Part shown: in pieces, positions 1-30,645 of the stretch
Numbering within the stretch: the stretch's first letter is position 1
How the letters are laid out: the number at the start of each line of letters is the position of its first letter
DNA from: a virus
Taxonomy: Duplodnaviria; Heunggongvirae; Uroviricota; Caudoviricetes
IMG/VR virus record: IMGVR_UViG_2671181127_000013
Span: 1-37,174 of that record
Strand: one strand, 5' to 3'
Length of the DNA stretch: 37,174 nt
The notes under the pieces: generated by a model
Database searches by the model: none
Seen by the model: only the letters and a program-made list of their open reading frames with translations
What the model was told of the DNA's origin: nothing
Program-made: the position numbers and the translations under genes

Positions 1-141
1 TTACTGCTTACACTGTAAGAACGCCGCAAACTCCGCTCCCCAGATGTTCATCCGTATTTCACACAGCGAACCATGTAACATCCAGATGATGAGGATTGCC
101 GTCACGCAGAACGTGATGGCCATAAGCGATTTTTGCGACAT
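1..141 (-). CDS. Hok/Gef-family type I toxin, 46 aa (copy A)
   Basis: My translation of the reverse complement: MSQKSLMAITFCVTAILIIWMLHGSLCEIRMNIWGAEFAAFLQCKQ; N-terminal TM helix plus SLCEIR...AAF motif as in plasmid R1 Hok (KSLCEIR...EVAAF); AAGGAG SD upstream; below the 60-aa ORF-track cutoff. Confidence 0.6.
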   Translation of the reverse strand: MSQKSLMAITFCVTAILIIWMLHGSLCEIRMNIWGAEFAAFLQCKQ

Positions 142-294
142 AGCGCTTGCTCCTTTGTTGGAGAGGCGCTAACCTGTCACTTGCTAAGGTTAGATGGTTA
201 GGGCCTCGGGTTAACGTTTAAGTTGACTCGGGGCCTTTCCACATCCGGCCTTCAGGTAATCCTTCCAGCCGTCAGCCGAAAGGCACCCACGTGT

Positions 295-323
295 AATCTA
301 CTGATTTCCCTTTGTGCGCGCAA
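295..323 (-). promoter_or_regulatory. Putative sigma70 promoter of hok-like copy A (TTGCGC-17 bp-TAGATT on minus strand)
   Basis: -35/-10 hexamers with 17-bp spacer upstream of the conserved leader; the same architecture recurs upstream of copy B. Confidence 0.4.
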
Positions 324-358
324 TGCTCAGTGTTGAAACTGTTTAGGGGGAGGGCGGC

Positions 359-381
359 AAAAAAGCCCGCATATTGCGGGC
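359..381 (-). terminator. Rho-independent terminator downstream of hok-like copy B
   Basis: Minus-strand hairpin GCCCGC-AATAT-GCGGGC followed by TTTTTT. Confidence 0.5.
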
Positions 382-472
382 AAATACGTCTGTAATCCAA
401 TGGAGAAAGGGGTGCCATATCGACTGAACCCGACAACCGGATAGCGGGGGCTTTCACCCCCGCTGCGGTTTC

Positions 473-613
473 TTACTGTTTACACTGCAAGAACGCCGCA
501 AATTCTGACCACATGATGTTAAGTCTGAACTCACACGGCGAACGGTGTATCATCCAGATGGCCAACAACATGGTTAAGCATAAAATGCTCACGATGATCG
601 TTTTTTGCGGCAT
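473..613 (-). CDS. Hok/Gef-family type I toxin, 46 aa (copy B)
   Basis: My translation: MPQKTIIVSILCLTMLLAIWMIHRSPCEFRLNIMWSEFAAFLQCKQ; about 60 percent identical to copy A, same C-terminal EFAAFLQCKQ. Confidence 0.55.
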   Translation of the reverse strand: MPQKTIIVSILCLTMLLAIWMIHRSPCEFRLNIMWSEFAAFLQCKQ

Positions 614-747
614 AGCGCTTGACTCCTTTTACAGGGAGGCGCTAACCTTCCACTTGTCTAGGGTAGGAATGGTTAGGGCCTCGGGTTAAACAATATGTTT
701 GACTCGGGGCCTTTCCACATCCGGCCTTCAGGTTTTCCTTCCAGCCG

Positions 748-1050
748 TCAGCCGAAAGGCACCCGCGCGTAATGTACTGGTTTTAAAGCCATACCGCAAT
801 CCTCCAGTTGTAGCGTTAACTGACTGCGTCCCTGATGGGATTTGCGCATTGTCTCCCGTGGAATATCTTTATCGTGGAAGATCAACTGAGGCTGGCCAAT
901 AATTCTGTGCACACTTTCCATTGTTGAAAATGTGGCGCTGCACTCAAGGTTATTGCACTGATAGTATTTGTAGCGGATGGTGCCGGTATCATTGGCGGCT
1001 TTACTGGTACGGATCCGGGCAGATGCGCCGCAGAATGGACAATGAAACAT
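748..1050 (-). CDS. ogr: Ogr/Delta-type zinc-finger late-gene transcriptional activator (100 aa)
   Basis: MFHCPFCGASARIRTSK...YYQCNNLECSATFSTMESV matches the P2 Ogr Cys4 zinc finger; start moved to the internal ATG at 1050 (upstream GGGGG SD); the ORF-track N-terminal extension was rejected. Confidence 0.85.
   Translation of the reverse strand: MFHCPFCGASARIRTSKAANDTGTIRYKYYQCNNLECSATFSTMESVHRIIGQPQLIFHDKDIPRETMRKSHQGRSQLTLQLEDCGMALKPVHYARVPFG
771..799 (-). promoter_or_regulatory. Putative sigma70 promoter of hok-like copy B (TTGCGG-17 bp-TACATT), lying inside the 3' end of the ogr ORF
   Basis: Same -35/-10 spacing as the copy A promoter; sits just upstream of the conserved ~160-bp leader. 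Confidence 0.4.
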
Positions 1051-1094: not shown

Positions 1095-2219
1095 CTAACC
1101 ATTGCTTTCCTTTTCGGCTATCCACTCGGGTATTCTTGCCTCCAGTTCAAGCCTTGTGGTGAAGCCGCTTCCGTCGATATTGTGTTCCACTTTTGCAATG
1201 AGCCAGTCCTGATTGTCTATCTCGGTTTTAAAGCCGGTTACCGTGCCATGCATTTCAGGGTAAAGCTCCGCTCTGCCCCGGGCCAGCGTGATGGAGAATT
1301 CAGCCGCACCGCGCTGTAATTGCTGCCACCTGGCGGCAGCTGCGCGCTGTGCAGCAATTTCGTTTGGGTAGGTTTTTCTCAGAACGAACACGTTACCTTC
1401 TGCCCCCTCCATGTAGCTGCCTTCCCGGCTGCTGCTCTTTTCAGCGTGAGTTTTTCGTTTTTTTATGTTGACGGCTTTCTTTTTGCCATGATTCAAATCC
1501 AGCCAGTACGCCTTCACCCCTGTGTATGCCTGGCGATCGGCTATTCTGAACTGGTGACTGTCTCCGTCACTGCGTGCCAGTGCAAATGAGGGGAGTGGGC
1601 GCCCGTCAGCTGTCACGCCGCCACCCGGCAGAATGAACAGCAGACAGCCATTTTTGACGGTAGTGATGGCTCCCAGCATATCAGCCATGCGGGTAAGGAA
1701 TGATATGTCGCTTTCTTCCGTCTGGTCGGCATGATCGATTTCAATATCCATAAGCATATCGCTTATCTGGGCTTTCAGTCCGTAACGGTGGGCAATAGCG
1801 GAAACCACGCGTTCAACAGTCACGTCGTGCCAGGATACTTCCCGTTTGACGTTAAATTCCTCCCTGAAGTCTGCGCTGTTTGCACTCAGTGTCAGCCGAT
1901 CCGGAGGTCCTTCATGAGCGACCTCATCAACAATGTAGGTGCCTTTATCAACCAGAGGCTCTCCCTTCCATCCCAGCATGACTCTGATGTGTGTTCCCCG
2001 CCCGGGGAGAGCCAGTTGCCCGTCGGCATCATCCAGCACAAGAGTGACCCTGTCTGCTTCAAACCCCCGGTTGTCTGTCATGGAAAGCGATATCACCCGG
2101 TTATTCAGTTCCTGAAGTGTGTTTTTATCCTGCTCCCTGTCCAGTGAAACGCTGAAATCAGGCATTTTCACCAGTTCTTTCAGGGGGGAATAAACCGTGT
2201 TACCGTTCAGCAATACCAT
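1095..2219 (-). CDS. D: Tail protein D (late control gene D family)
   Basis: LSMTDNRGFEADRVTLVLDDADG motif typical of Phage_GPD; start set at ATG 2219 with GGAGG SD; the longer ORF-track N-terminus overlaps FI and is not credible. Confidence 0.9.
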   Translation of the reverse strand: MVLLNGNTVYSPLKELVKMPDFSVSLDREQDKNTLQELNNRVISLSMTDNRGFEADRVTLVLDDADGQLALPGRGTHIRVMLGWKGEPLVDKGTYIVDEVAHEGPPDRLTLSANSADFREEFNVKREVSWHDVTVERVVSAIAHRYGLKAQISDMLMDIEIDHADQTEESDISFLTRMADMLGAITTVKNGCLLFILPGGGVTADGRPLPSFALARSDGDSHQFRIADRQAYTGVKAYWLDLNHGKKKAVNIKKRKTHAEKSSSREGSYMEGAEGNVFVLRKTYPNEIAAQRAAAARWQQLQRGAAEFSITLARGRAELYPEMHGTVTGFKTEIDNQDWLIAKVEHNIDGSGFTTRLELEARIPEWIAEKESNG

Positions 2220-2373
2220 AATTCCTCCGTTTTTCCCGCCACAGTTGCATACCAGAAACACCACCGGAATGAGTTTGGGTTGTATGTGTATTGCGAGAAA
2301 CCGCAGTTCGTGAAAAAGCTCCCCGTGTTCGTAAAGATCTCTGCTGAACTCACACGAATGCAGGGTGAATAAT

Positions 2374-3561
2374 ATGGCTGAAACCCGTTTCCATGGCGTG
2401 CGGGTCCGGGAGAATGCGGATCTGGTCACGGCCATTAATGATATTGACTCCAGTGTGATTGGTATCGTGGCTGTTGCTGATGATGCTGATGCAAAAACAT
2501 TTCCGCTGGATAAGCCGGTGCTCCTGACGCGCGTTATGGATGTGCTGGGTAAGGCCGGGAAAACCGGCACGCTGTACAAAAGTCTGAAAGCTATTGCCGA
2601 TCAGGTCAGCACCAGAGTTGTTGTGGTGCGGGTTGCTGCTGCGAAGGAGGGGGATGGTCAGCCGACACAAACGCAGCTTGTTATTGGTGAGGTCAAAAAT
2701 GACGGAACCTATACAGGCATGCAGGCGCTCCTGGTGGCTGAACAGAATGAGGCTGTTGGTGTTCGTCCCAGGATCCTGGCTGTGCCATCGCTTGACACCA
2801 AAGAGGTGGTGGCGGCACTGGTAACCGTCGCGAAAAAGCTGCGTGCCTTTGTGTATGCGGGCTGTCCCGGCTGTAATACCGTGCAGGAGGCTGTCACCTG
2901 GCGCGCCGATCTTGCTCACCGTGAAGTTATGCTGATCTGGCCTGATTTTATCGCGTACAACCCTAACAGTGGCCAGAATGAGGCTTTTCCTGCATCTGCG
3001 TATGCGTGCGGGTTGCGTGCGAAGATTGACCACGAGCAGGGCTGGCATAAATCCCTGTCCAATGTGGCAGTGAATAATGTCCTGGGTATTTCTGTGCCGG
3101 TGTTCTGGTCGCTCCAGGCAGAGGACAGTGACGCGGAAACCCTCAATGACAAGGAGATCACCACACTCATTAAACGTAACGGCTTCCGTTTCTGGGGTAA
3201 CCGGACTCTCGACACCACTACCTACACCTTTGAGACCTACACGCGTACGGCGCAGTCGCTGGCGGATACCATCGCCGAATCGCAGTTTGAAACCGTGGAC
3301 AAGCCGCTGACGCCGTCGAACGTGAAGGATGTGTTAAGCGATATCCGGGCAAAACTGAGTGCCCTTGTGACAGCGGGTAAACTTATCGGGGCAGAGTGCT
3401 GGTATGACGTGGTGGATAACGGCACAACGGATCTGCGTCAGGGGATTGTGCGGATCCGCTACAGATATACGCCGGTACCACCGCTTGAAGATCTGGAGCT
3501 TCACCAGACGTTTACTGATGAGTTCTTTGACGGTGCATTTGCATCACTGGGAGGTGAGTAA
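2374..3561 (+). CDS. FI: Tail sheath protein FI
   Basis: Close similarity along its length to P2 gpFI (FPLDKPVLLT, RPRILAVPSLDTKEV, MLIWPDF, GFRFWGNRT, YTRTAQ, PVPPLE). Confidence 0.9.
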   Translation: MAETRFHGVRVRENADLVTAINDIDSSVIGIVAVADDADAKTFPLDKPVLLTRVMDVLGKAGKTGTLYKSLKAIADQVSTRVVVVRVAAAKEGDGQPTQTQLVIGEVKNDGTYTGMQALLVAEQNEAVGVRPRILAVPSLDTKEVVAALVTVAKKLRAFVYAGCPGCNTVQEAVTWRADLAHREVMLIWPDFIAYNPNSGQNEAFPASAYACGLRAKIDHEQGWHKSLSNVAVNNVLGISVPVFWSLQAEDSDAETLNDKEITTLIKRNGFRFWGNRTLDTTTYTFETYTRTAQSLADTIAESQFETVDKPLTPSNVKDVLSDIRAKLSALVTAGKLIGAECWYDVVDNGTTDLRQGIVRIRYRYTPVPPLEDLELHQTFTDEFFDGAFASLGGE

Positions 3562-30262: not shown

Positions 30263-30441
30263 GGTGTGGCCTCTTTGCTAGTAAGTTCTGAAAACTCACC
30301 ATCCAGAGCTGCGAAACTGTGGGTGGCGAGACGTACGAGGTTCGCAGTACCGGCTAGCAAAGAACCCGGCCCGACCGAAGTCGGCCCCGTACGCCCCGCC
30401 ATTATTCTGACGCGAAAAAGACGTGGCGATACAGTACGCAC

Positions 30442-30462
30442 AAAAAAACCGCTGGCGCGGTT
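30442..30462 (-). terminator. Putative rho-independent terminator separating early-left genes from the replication module
   Basis: Minus-strand ACCGC-GCCA-GCGGT hairpin followed by T7. Confidence 0.4.
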
Positions 30463-30645
30463 GTGCGCTTTGCTAGTCGGCGGGCTGCGAAACCCGGCAC
30501 CCGTTTTATGAGATGCGGGAAAACTGTAACCCGACCAGACGAGCGCTGGCAAGCGGTTTTTGTGTTGCGTGCTGATGTGGTTAGAATGTGGCGAATTAAT
30601 ATCACCTGGCAACTGGTGATTGTCTGCATACGCGGGGTGTTTCTG

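What the first reader, a model, noticed from the sequence alone, without database searches (positions are those of the whole stretch)
699..1050. Ogr reading frame is about 28 codons longer than P2 Ogr and its 3' end runs into the hok-B promoter/leader repeat
Seen: the ogr ORF continues past the zinc-finger domain to a stop at 748, ending ...KPVHYARVPFG. The unrelated minus-strand ORF at 272-457 ends ...VDYTWVPFG because both read through the same repeated hok-leader sequence (about 220-300 and 699-780). Inference: the ogr 3' end has been fused to or replaced by hok-locus sequence, which would happen if the phage attachment core lies in this repeat, or if the Ogr tail is simply non-functional read-through. 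This also places the hok-B promoter inside the ogr coding region.
Basis: partly seen in the sequence, partly recalled or inferred. Interest (0 to 1): 0.5.

Follow-up and report, generated by a model that had tools for sequence, protein, structure and literature searches.

The report
Ogr gene reads into hok cassette
In this P2-like E. coli prophage the late-gene activator gene ogr has lost its stop codon and runs 18 extra codons into the promoter and leader of an adjacent phage-borne hok toxin cassette; this is most likely a harmless by-product of cassette insertion, not an integration-site fusion.

Summary
The spurious ORF 457..272 ends VPFG because both read the same frame of an 85-nt repeat (223-307 / 699-783, 93% identical). 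That repeat is the leader of two tandem hok/sok-type cassettes.

Homology to other Ogr proteins stops at residue 82, not at the end of the zinc finger. Relatives are 79-86 aa, so only 18 codons are extra. These codons are the hok-B -35 hexamer, spacer, -10 hexamer and the first 14 nt of the transcript. The ogr stop lies at +15..+17 of the hok-B mRNA.

The attachment core is not in the repeat. It lies at the serS terminator, about 195 bp beyond hok-A, so the hok cassettes are phage cargo. Relatives without hok, and P2, have a terminator directly after ogr; here a hok cassette replaces it.

All 29 100-aa alleles examined abut hok. Codons 92-100 show 0 of 27 nucleotide changes between alleles whose cores differ by 41-43%, while the spacer codons change only non-synonymously. 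The constraint therefore acts on hok DNA/RNA, not on the protein.

Verdict: an ordinary junction read-through of low interest.

The parts
748..1050 (-). ogr ORF: 100 codons plus the TGA stop at 750..748
   Evidence: Pfam Ogr_Delta PF04606 scores 58.3 bits against a cutoff of 26.3, over residues 3-51.
805..1050 (-). Codons 1-82, the part of Ogr that is homologous to relatives. The zinc ribbon is residues 3-51, and the conserved C-terminal motif is SH(R/Q)G..QL.L.L.
   Evidence: All 40 listed tblastn rows in the phage collection cover query residues 1-82 and nothing beyond. See also the alignments.
751..804 (-). Codons 83-100 (EDCGMALKPVHYARVPFG): the read-through tail, encoded by the junction plus the hok-B promoter and leader
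794..799 (-). Inferred hok-B -35 hexamer TTGCGG (codons D84-C85-G86)
   Evidence: TTGC is invariant in 9 cassettes, including ones unrelated to ogr. The position is inferred, not mapped.
771..776 (-). Inferred hok-B -10 hexamer TACATT (codons V92-H93-Y94), 17-nt spacer from the -35
   Evidence: and the sequence.
602..764 (-). hok-B mRNA leader. The inferred +1 is G764, and the ogr stop is at +15..+17.
   Evidence: Rfam RF01794 model positions 1-157 match at E = 3e-8, 43.9 bits, which is below the gathering score of 59. The 5' GGGUGCC pairs with GGCACCC in the 3' region in the predicted fold.
473..613 (-). hok-B ORF, 46 aa
   Evidence: Pfam HOK_GEF 26.6 bits against a cutoff of 22. PHROG 251, E = 1.7e-18.
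410..416 (-). 3' fold-back element (fbi-like GGCACCC) that pairs with the 5' end of the hok-B mRNA
   Evidence: Minimum-free-energy fold of 764..355: -168.4 kcal/mol, z = -7.4.
359..381 (-). Intrinsic terminator of the hok-B cassette (GCCCGCAATATGCGGGC followed by a T-run). It is also the only terminator downstream of ogr.
619..715 (+). Putative Sok-B antisense unit: -35 TTGACT at 619-624, -10 near 643-648, RNA from about 655 to 715 with a hairpin at 675-712 followed by UUU
   Evidence: Conserved sequence in the alignment; fold -30.5 kcal/mol, z = -4.7. Inferred only.
1..323 (-). hok-A cassette: ORF 1-141, leader 131-288 (+1 at 288), -10 TAGATT at 295-300, -35 TTGCGC at 318-323. Its 3' end and terminator lie outside the window.
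   Evidence: the L001 sequence.
272..457 (-). Spurious 61-aa ORF that runs from the hok-B 3' region through the terminator and hok-A promoter into the hok-A leader
   Evidence: No family match.
699..783 (.). Direct-repeat copy 2, the partner of 223-307 (85 nt, 93% identical)

Best explanation
The left end of the window is the D-ogr end of a P88-related (Peduoviridae) prophage. It carries two hok/sok-type type I toxin-antitoxin cassettes as cargo between ogr and the attachment site. In P2 and in relatives without hok, the ogr stop codon is followed within about 5-10 nt by an intrinsic terminator and then attP. In this phage group a hok cassette, whose 5' edge is its own -35 hexamer, sits where that terminator would be. 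In the lineage of the window the junction holds no stop codon in the ogr frame. Translation therefore continues for 18 codons through the hok-B -35, spacer, -10 and first 14 nt of the transcript, and ends at a UGA at +15..+17 of the hok-B mRNA, inside the 5' element that pairs with the mRNA's 3' end. The tail is a tolerated by-product, and its apparent conservation is imposed by hok cis-elements.

Shown directly: the ORF, the repeat, where homology ends, where the att core lies, and the pattern of substitutions. Inferred: the exact transcription start and promoter, the Sok RNA, ogr-hok co-transcription, and that the tail is functionally neutral.
For: (1) Homology ends at residue 82. All 40 listed phage rows cover residues 1-82 and nothing beyond. 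Relatives without hok are 79-83 aa and end ...QLNLAI or ...QLTLSL, followed by a terminator. P88-type Ogr is 86 aa, and P0003 is 83 aa with a TGA stop 3 nt before the -35.

(2) The tail codons coincide with TTGC(-35)...TA.ATT(-10)...GGGTGCCTTTCGGCTGA. This sequence is invariant in hok cassettes that have nothing to do with ogr, namely hok-A and the lom-adjacent cassettes of Stx phages.

(3) The substitution pattern points to DNA/RNA constraint. Between alleles whose cores differ by 41-43% of nucleotides, codons 92-100 show 0 of 27 changes. In the four comparisons between distinct allele types, the spacer codons 87-91 differ at 40-60% of nucleotides with 0 synonymous and 3-4 non-synonymous changes out of 5 codons. 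Core codons show purifying selection (21-24 synonymous against 7-8 non-synonymous changes).

(4) All 29 of 29 100-aa alleles have the hok +1 exactly 17 nt before the end of the stop codon.

(5) The att core is at the serS terminator, and hok travels with the phage to other integration sites. The P2 record annotates the order ogr, terminator, attP.

(6) AlphaFold gives pLDDT below 50 for residues 72-100 and 80-88 for the zinc ribbon, from a shallow alignment.

(7) From my own knowledge, not retrievable here: Gebhardt et al. 1993, J Bacteriol 175:7724, reported that truncating the C-terminus of P2 Ogr does not abolish activity.
Against: The read-through form is shared by two Ogr allele groups that are only about 60% identical, so it has persisted or spread, and a weak function cannot be excluded. 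No transcription start, protein or activity data are available. The hok promoter hexamers match the consensus at only 7 of 12 positions and were not called by the generic scan. The Rfam match is below the gathering score.
Confidence: 0.8

Rival explanations
1. Integration-site fusion. The phage attachment core lies in the repeated hok leader, so integration replaced the ogr 3' end with sequence from a host hok locus.
For: In P2, attP lies just after ogr, and the repeat is the kind of feature an att duplication could produce.
Against: Host (K-12) homology ends at the serS terminator. The core CCTGCGGGCGCTTTTT is duplicated at both ends of the intact SCU-172 prophage, and hok lies inside these bounds. 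K-12 has no hok between serS and dmsA. The same ogr-hok junction occurs at several different chromosomal sites and inside phage genomes and IMG/VR contigs. The two repeat copies are parts of two complete cassettes, not att halves.
Confidence: 0.02
2. Functional coupling. Because there is no terminator after ogr, late D-ogr transcripts run into hok-B. Ribosomes finishing the ogr tail at +15..+17 would occupy the 5' fold-back element and change hok mRNA folding or promoter use. This would tie Hok production to the lytic cycle, as an accessory lysis or release factor.
For: There is no terminator between ogr and the hok-B terminator at 359-381. The stop codon lies inside the 5' stem that pairs with the 3' end. 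A different prophage hok locus, hokW-sokW of Sp5, promotes lysis and phage release after induction (PMC8621323). The read-through form persists in divergent alleles.
Against: Most relatives (74 with 86 aa and 9 with 83 aa in the samples) stop 38-44 nt before +1, so any coupling is not general. Nothing in the sequence requires it. No expression data exist.
Confidence: 0.1
3. The tail is a selected functional C-terminal peptide of Ogr, for example one that modulates stability or contact with RNA polymerase.
For: VHYARVPFG is identical in all four distinct 100-aa proteins.
Against: The identity holds at every nucleotide, including third codon positions, and in cassettes that are not translated in this frame as part of ogr. 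The intervening residues are free to vary. The tail is predicted to be disordered. Close relatives lack it.
Confidence: 0.05
4. Sequencing or assembly frameshift artefact.
For: None.
Against: The identical ORF is present in many independent assemblies: it is listed in 2609 index blocks, all 10 places shown carry it, and 11 complete E. coli genomes hold it.
Confidence: 0.01

Closest known systems
Phage P2 ogr - terminator - attP arrangement (NC_001895)
   Same: ogr follows tail gene D and is the last gene before the attachment site. The zinc-ribbon part is 52% identical over residues 1-54.
   Different: P2 Ogr is 72 aa and is followed 10 nt later by a rho-independent terminator and attP. Here two hok cassettes are interposed and the ogr ORF runs into the first one. 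D-ogr is also divergent from the sheath operon here.
P88-like phages (Xuanwuvirus: P88, P88_4B11, Shae_phiSM, Chuche)
   Same: A hok cassette directly abuts ogr with no terminator between them. The hok-A cassette is 89-90% identical to theirs.
   Different: Their Ogr is 86 aa, with a TAA stop about 10 nt before the hok -35. It is only about 50% identical to the window's Ogr. Their structural genes are about 72% identical in nucleotides. They carry one cassette rather than two.
hok/sok of plasmid R1 and chromosomal hok loci (type I toxin-antitoxin)
   Same: A small Hok/Gef toxin (Pfam match above cutoff), a long structured leader, 5'-3' fold-back pairing, and a putative short antisense RNA with a 5' tail and a terminator hairpin.
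   Different: No mok-like overlapping ORF of 20 codons or more. The Rfam score is below the gathering threshold. The locus is carried as a phage moron.
hokW-sokW of Stx prophage Sp5 (PMC8621323)
   Same: [quoted passage not shown]
   Different: It is a different Hok subfamily (51 aa, MKQQKAM...; primers; no match in the fetched loci). The Sp5 sequence that does match the window is an unannotated 46-aa hok directly after the lom terminator.

Membership tests
Ogr/Delta zinc-finger late activators (PF04606) | Profile match above the curated cutoff, with a four-cysteine zinc ribbon | tested here: met
   58.3 bits against a cutoff of 26.3, residues 3-51; cysteines C4, C7, C32 and C37.
Ogr/Delta zinc-finger late activators (PF04606) | Position downstream of tail gene D at the att-proximal end of a P2-like genome | tested here: met
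Ogr/Delta zinc-finger late activators (PF04606) | Activates late promoters through the RNA polymerase alpha subunit | not testable with these tools
   A search for the P2-type TGT-N12-ACA dyad gave 8 hits against 9 expected, and none lies upstream of D.
Hok/Gef type I toxin (PF01848) | Profile match above the curated cutoff for the toxin ORF | tested here: met
   hok-B scores 26.6 bits and hok-A 30.3 bits against a cutoff of 22. PHROG 251 matches at E = 1.7e-18 and 8.6e-23.
hok/sok locus (Rfam RF01794 leader/antisense region) | Covariance-model match at the gathering score | tested here: inconclusive
   43.9 and 42.0 bits against a gathering score of 59, but E = 3e-8 and 1e-7 with the full model length aligned.
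hok/sok locus | Pairing of the mRNA 5' end with its 3' region (tac-fbi type fold-back) | tested here: met
   The minimum-free-energy fold pairs nt 1-7 and 10-17 with the 3' region; z = -7.4. This is a prediction only.
hok/sok locus | A mok reading frame that overlaps the hok start | tested here: not met
   No minus-strand ORF of 20 codons or more starts in either leader and overlaps the hok ATG.
hok/sok locus | Toxicity of Hok and neutralisation by the antisense RNA | not testable with these tools
   Not tested.
   The core CCTGCGGGCGCTTTTT lies at the serS terminator, outside the window, and is absent from the window.

The most novel reading that the evidence does not exclude
The loss of the ogr stop codon is not neutral. 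D-ogr late transcripts continue into hok-B, and ribosomes terminating at +15..+17 hold open the 5' fold-back element of the hok mRNA. Hok translation would then be licensed only when the late activator gene is being expressed. This would wire a toxin-antitoxin cassette into the lytic programme as an accessory lysis or release factor.
Probability: 0.08. Interest if true: 0.45.

Novelty: new member of a known kind. Interest (0 to 1): 0.15.

Why it matters
Its main value is as a cautionary example for annotation. The conserved-looking C-terminal peptide of Ogr is conserved only because it overlaps cis-regulatory and RNA-structural elements of a neighbouring gene. The result also documents three things about these hok cassettes. 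They are discrete modules running from the -35 hexamer to the terminator. In P88-like phages they replace the ogr terminator. In lambdoid phages they sit just after the lom terminator. If the coupling hypothesis were true, it would give a simple mechanism linking a type I toxin to the phage late programme, but nothing here requires it.

Tried and rejected
1. The att core is not in the repeat. I searched for the core in the window and found 0 hits, and I mapped it at the serS terminator instead.

2. The generic sigma-70 scan did not call the hok promoters, which match the consensus at 7 of 12 positions. Its one plus-strand hit, at 559-586, is not conserved in hok-A and is probably chance.

3. 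P2-type Ogr dyads (TGT-N12-ACA) gave 8 hits against 9 expected, and none lies upstream of D or ogr.

4. I tested whether the sequence upstream of the hok-A -35 is a remnant of an ogr 3' end, which would suggest cassette insertion by unequal exchange. The best p-values were 0.014 and 0.04, uncorrected for several comparisons. I treat this as inconclusive.

5. An exact search for the window-type junction in IMG/VR gave 0 hits. The protein-based scan then found four 100-aa alleles of the other type.

6. The paper on Ogr C-terminal truncation (Gebhardt et al. 1993) could not be retrieved and is cited from memory only.

7. hokW-sokW first looked like the ortholog, but the primer sequences show that it is a different hok locus.

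8. A PDB sequence search found only weak NrdR zinc-ribbon hits (E = 0.04).

Full report
**Observation.** The window begins at the stop codon of a hok gene and ends at the stop codon of an integrase gene. On the minus strand, ogr runs from the ATG at 1050 to the TGA at 750..748. It encodes 100 aa ending ...LEDCGMALKPVHYARVPFG. RefSeq annotates exactly this CDS in a 99.9% identical E. coli genome.

The minus-strand ORF 457..272 ends ...VDYTWVPFG and matches no protein family. It is the best-conserved part of two tandem cassettes that are 75% identical overall.

**What the repeat is.** Both copies match the full length of the Rfam hok/sok leader model. The matches are at 764..602 and 288..131 on the minus strand, with E = 3e-8 and 1e-7, although the scores are below the gathering threshold. 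Each copy precedes a 46-aa ORF that passes the Pfam HOK_GEF cutoff.

Taking +1 as G764, the hok-B RNA folds so that its 5' GGGUGCC and nt 10-17 pair with the region just past the hok stop (-168.4 kcal/mol, z = -7.4). This is the classical fold-back architecture of hok mRNAs. An intrinsic terminator follows at 381..359.

Upstream of +1 lie a -10 hexamer TACATT (776..771) and, after a 17-nt spacer, a -35 hexamer TTGCG (799..794). The same elements, TAGATT and TTGCGC, precede hok-A at 295-300 and 318-323. A plus-strand RNA at about 655-715, with a single-stranded 5' tail and a strong hairpin followed by UUU, is a plausible Sok. The promoter, start site and Sok RNA are all inferred, not mapped.

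**Where Ogr homology stops.** In a tblastn search of 50,697 phage records, all 40 listed rows cover query residues 1-82 and nothing beyond.
- P88-type Ogr proteins are 86 aa.
- A closer relative, P0003 (about 70% identical), is 83 aa.
- Relatives without hok, from Citrobacter, Edwardsiella, Rouxiella and Erwinia, are 79-83 aa and end ...QLNLAI or ...QLTLSL. These endings align with the window's ...QLTLQL (residues 77-82).
- Against P2 Ogr (72 aa) only residues 1-54 align.

The real extension is therefore 18 codons, E83 to G100.

**What the 18 codons are.** Alignments of nine junctions show the following.
- In P88-type phages, ogr ends with TAA about 10 nt before the hok -35.
- In the P0003 type, ogr ends with TGA 3 nt before the -35.
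- In the window type there is no stop at this junction. The frame reads GAT-TGC-GGT (the -35), then five spacer codons, then GTA-CAT-TAC (the -10), and runs into GGGTGCCTTTCGGC-TGA.
- The bases TTGC...AAA.C..TA.ATTA..CG.GGGTGCCTTTCGGCTGA are invariant even in cassettes with no ogr upstream. These are hok-A and the cassette that follows the lom terminator in Stx phages.

**Test for protein-level selection.** I compared the four distinct 100-aa proteins codon by codon.
- Core codons behave like a protein under purifying selection: 21-24 synonymous against 7-8 non-synonymous changed codons at 13-14% nucleotide divergence.
- The spacer codons 87-91 differ at 40-60% of nucleotides in comparisons between distinct allele types. 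Every change is non-synonymous.
- Codons 92-100 show 0 of 27 nucleotide differences, even between alleles whose cores differ by 41-43%.

Invariance at third codon positions, together with free variation of the neighbouring residues, is the signature of a DNA/RNA constraint. It is not the signature of a selected peptide. AlphaFold, with a shallow alignment, gives pLDDT of 80-88 for the zinc ribbon and below 50 for residues 72-100.

**Where the attachment site is.** The prophage lies between serS and dmsA.
- Homology to K-12 stops at the serS terminator.
- In strain SCU-172 the same 16-bp core, CCTGCGGGCGCTTTTT, is present at both ends of an intact prophage, with hok and ogr inside.
- The core is about 195 bp beyond hok-A and is absent from the window.
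- The ogr-hok unit is found at other chromosomal sites, with neighbours carrying PEP_mutase/ICL, Flk_N, LysR-type and TamB/GGACT domains. It is also found inside phage genomes and IMG/VR contigs.

**How the arrangement arose.** The P2 record annotates a rho-independent terminator "for ogr transcript and F operon" 10 nt after ogr, followed by attP. Relatives of this Ogr subfamily without hok likewise have a terminator within 5-6 nt of the stop. In the hok-bearing phages a cassette, bounded by its -35 on one side and its own terminator on the other, takes the place of the ogr terminator. The first terminator after ogr is then the hok-B terminator, so ogr-hok co-transcription is expected. This step is inferred.

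**Distribution.** The counts below combine 50 loci tallied (which included the window and related loci) with 80 IMG/VR loci.

| Ogr form | Relation to hok | Count |
|---|---|---|
| 100 aa | hok +1 lies 17 nt before the end of the stop codon | 29 of 29 |
| 86 aa | hok +1 lies 44 nt after the stop | 74 |
| 83 aa | hok +1 lies 38 nt after the stop | 9 |
| 79-83 aa | no hok | 9 |
| 94 aa (Symbiopectobacterium, an unrelated acidic tail) | no hok | 2 |

The window's exact protein is listed in 2609 index blocks of the large assembly collection. Its DNA is in only 11 of 5426 complete E. coli genomes. No isolated phage in the phage collection carries the tail.

**Mechanism and rivals.**
- The best explanation (confidence about 0.8) is incidental read-through at a moron junction. 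It is tolerated because the Ogr C-terminus is variable and probably disordered.
- The most interesting alternative (about 0.1) is that ribosomes ending at +15..+17 on read-through transcripts disturb the 5' fold-back element and link Hok expression to late transcription. The role of hokW-sokW in phage release (PMC8621323) makes this worth a simple stop-codon knock-in test. However, most relatives stop well before +1.
- A selected C-terminal peptide and a sequencing artefact are both unlikely.

**Comparison with known systems.** Ogr is a clear member of PF04606. The two toxins are clear Hok/Gef members of the 46-aa type, resembling HokA from my memory of the K-12 Hok sequences. No mok frame was found, and the Rfam score is sub-threshold.

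A recent survey reports that hok is enriched in prophages and that 3.5% of hok-carrying phages have two copies (bioRxiv 10.1101/2025.08.07.668861). The cassettes themselves are therefore not new. I found no description of the ogr-hok overlap, but it is a minor structural variant.

**Verdict.** The finding is ordinary and of low interest.

Noticed in passing
window 30319-30516 (-): A C4 antisense RNA (RF01695, 82 bits) and an isrK RNA (RF01394, 64.5 bits) lie side by side, both above their gathering scores. This is a P1/P7-type antisense immunity-like element in the early region of a P2-like prophage.
   Followed up: no
NZ_CP075697.1 (L001, L003, L049, L050), related genome: Strain STEC2018-607 carries two near-identical copies of this prophage with the same integrase protein. 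One is flanked by serS and the C-terminal part of yfaA (DUF2138). The other is flanked by the N-terminal part of yfaA (next to gyrA) and dmsA. This pattern fits a large chromosomal inversion by recombination between a prophage at serS-dmsA and one at a secondary site inside yfaA. The core-like sequence there is CCAGAAGGTGTTTT.
   Followed up: partly
L047 600-740 (VT2-Sakai) and L048: Stx phages carry an unannotated 46-aa hok cassette, 85-86% identical to the window's, whose -35 hexamer directly abuts the lom terminator. It is distinct from the published hokW locus.
   Followed up: partly
window 1-335 versus 473-811: The two cassettes are only 75% identical, so this is not a recent duplication. 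hok-A is 89-90% identical to the cassette of P88 and Shae_phiSM, and hok-B is 86% identical to that of Stx2 phage 86. Some genomes have one cassette and some have three. The near-identical leaders could mediate gain and loss of cassettes.
   Followed up: partly
L006 (P88, NC_026014) and L008 (Shae_phiSM): There are annotation problems in public records. The P88 RefSeq record has no CDS for its 86-aa ogr. In Shae_phiSM the D tail gene is labelled ogr and the sheath gene is labelled 'late control gene D protein'.
   Followed up: no
L017 (Vagococcus sp. WN89Y) and L022 (Planococcaceae MAG): P88-type ogr-hok sequence appears in assemblies labelled as Firmicutes. This is probably contamination or mis-binning.
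   Followed up: no
window 1095-3561: D-ogr, on the minus strand, is divergent from the sheath-tube-tape measure operon on the plus strand. In P2, by contrast, D and ogr follow the tail genes on one strand.
   Followed up: no
L019 and L020 (Symbiopectobacterium): The Ogr relatives here are 94 aa and carry a different, acidic C-terminal extension (…VLVDDSDESQV) with no hok nearby. This shows that the C-terminus of the family tolerates extensions.
   Followed up: no
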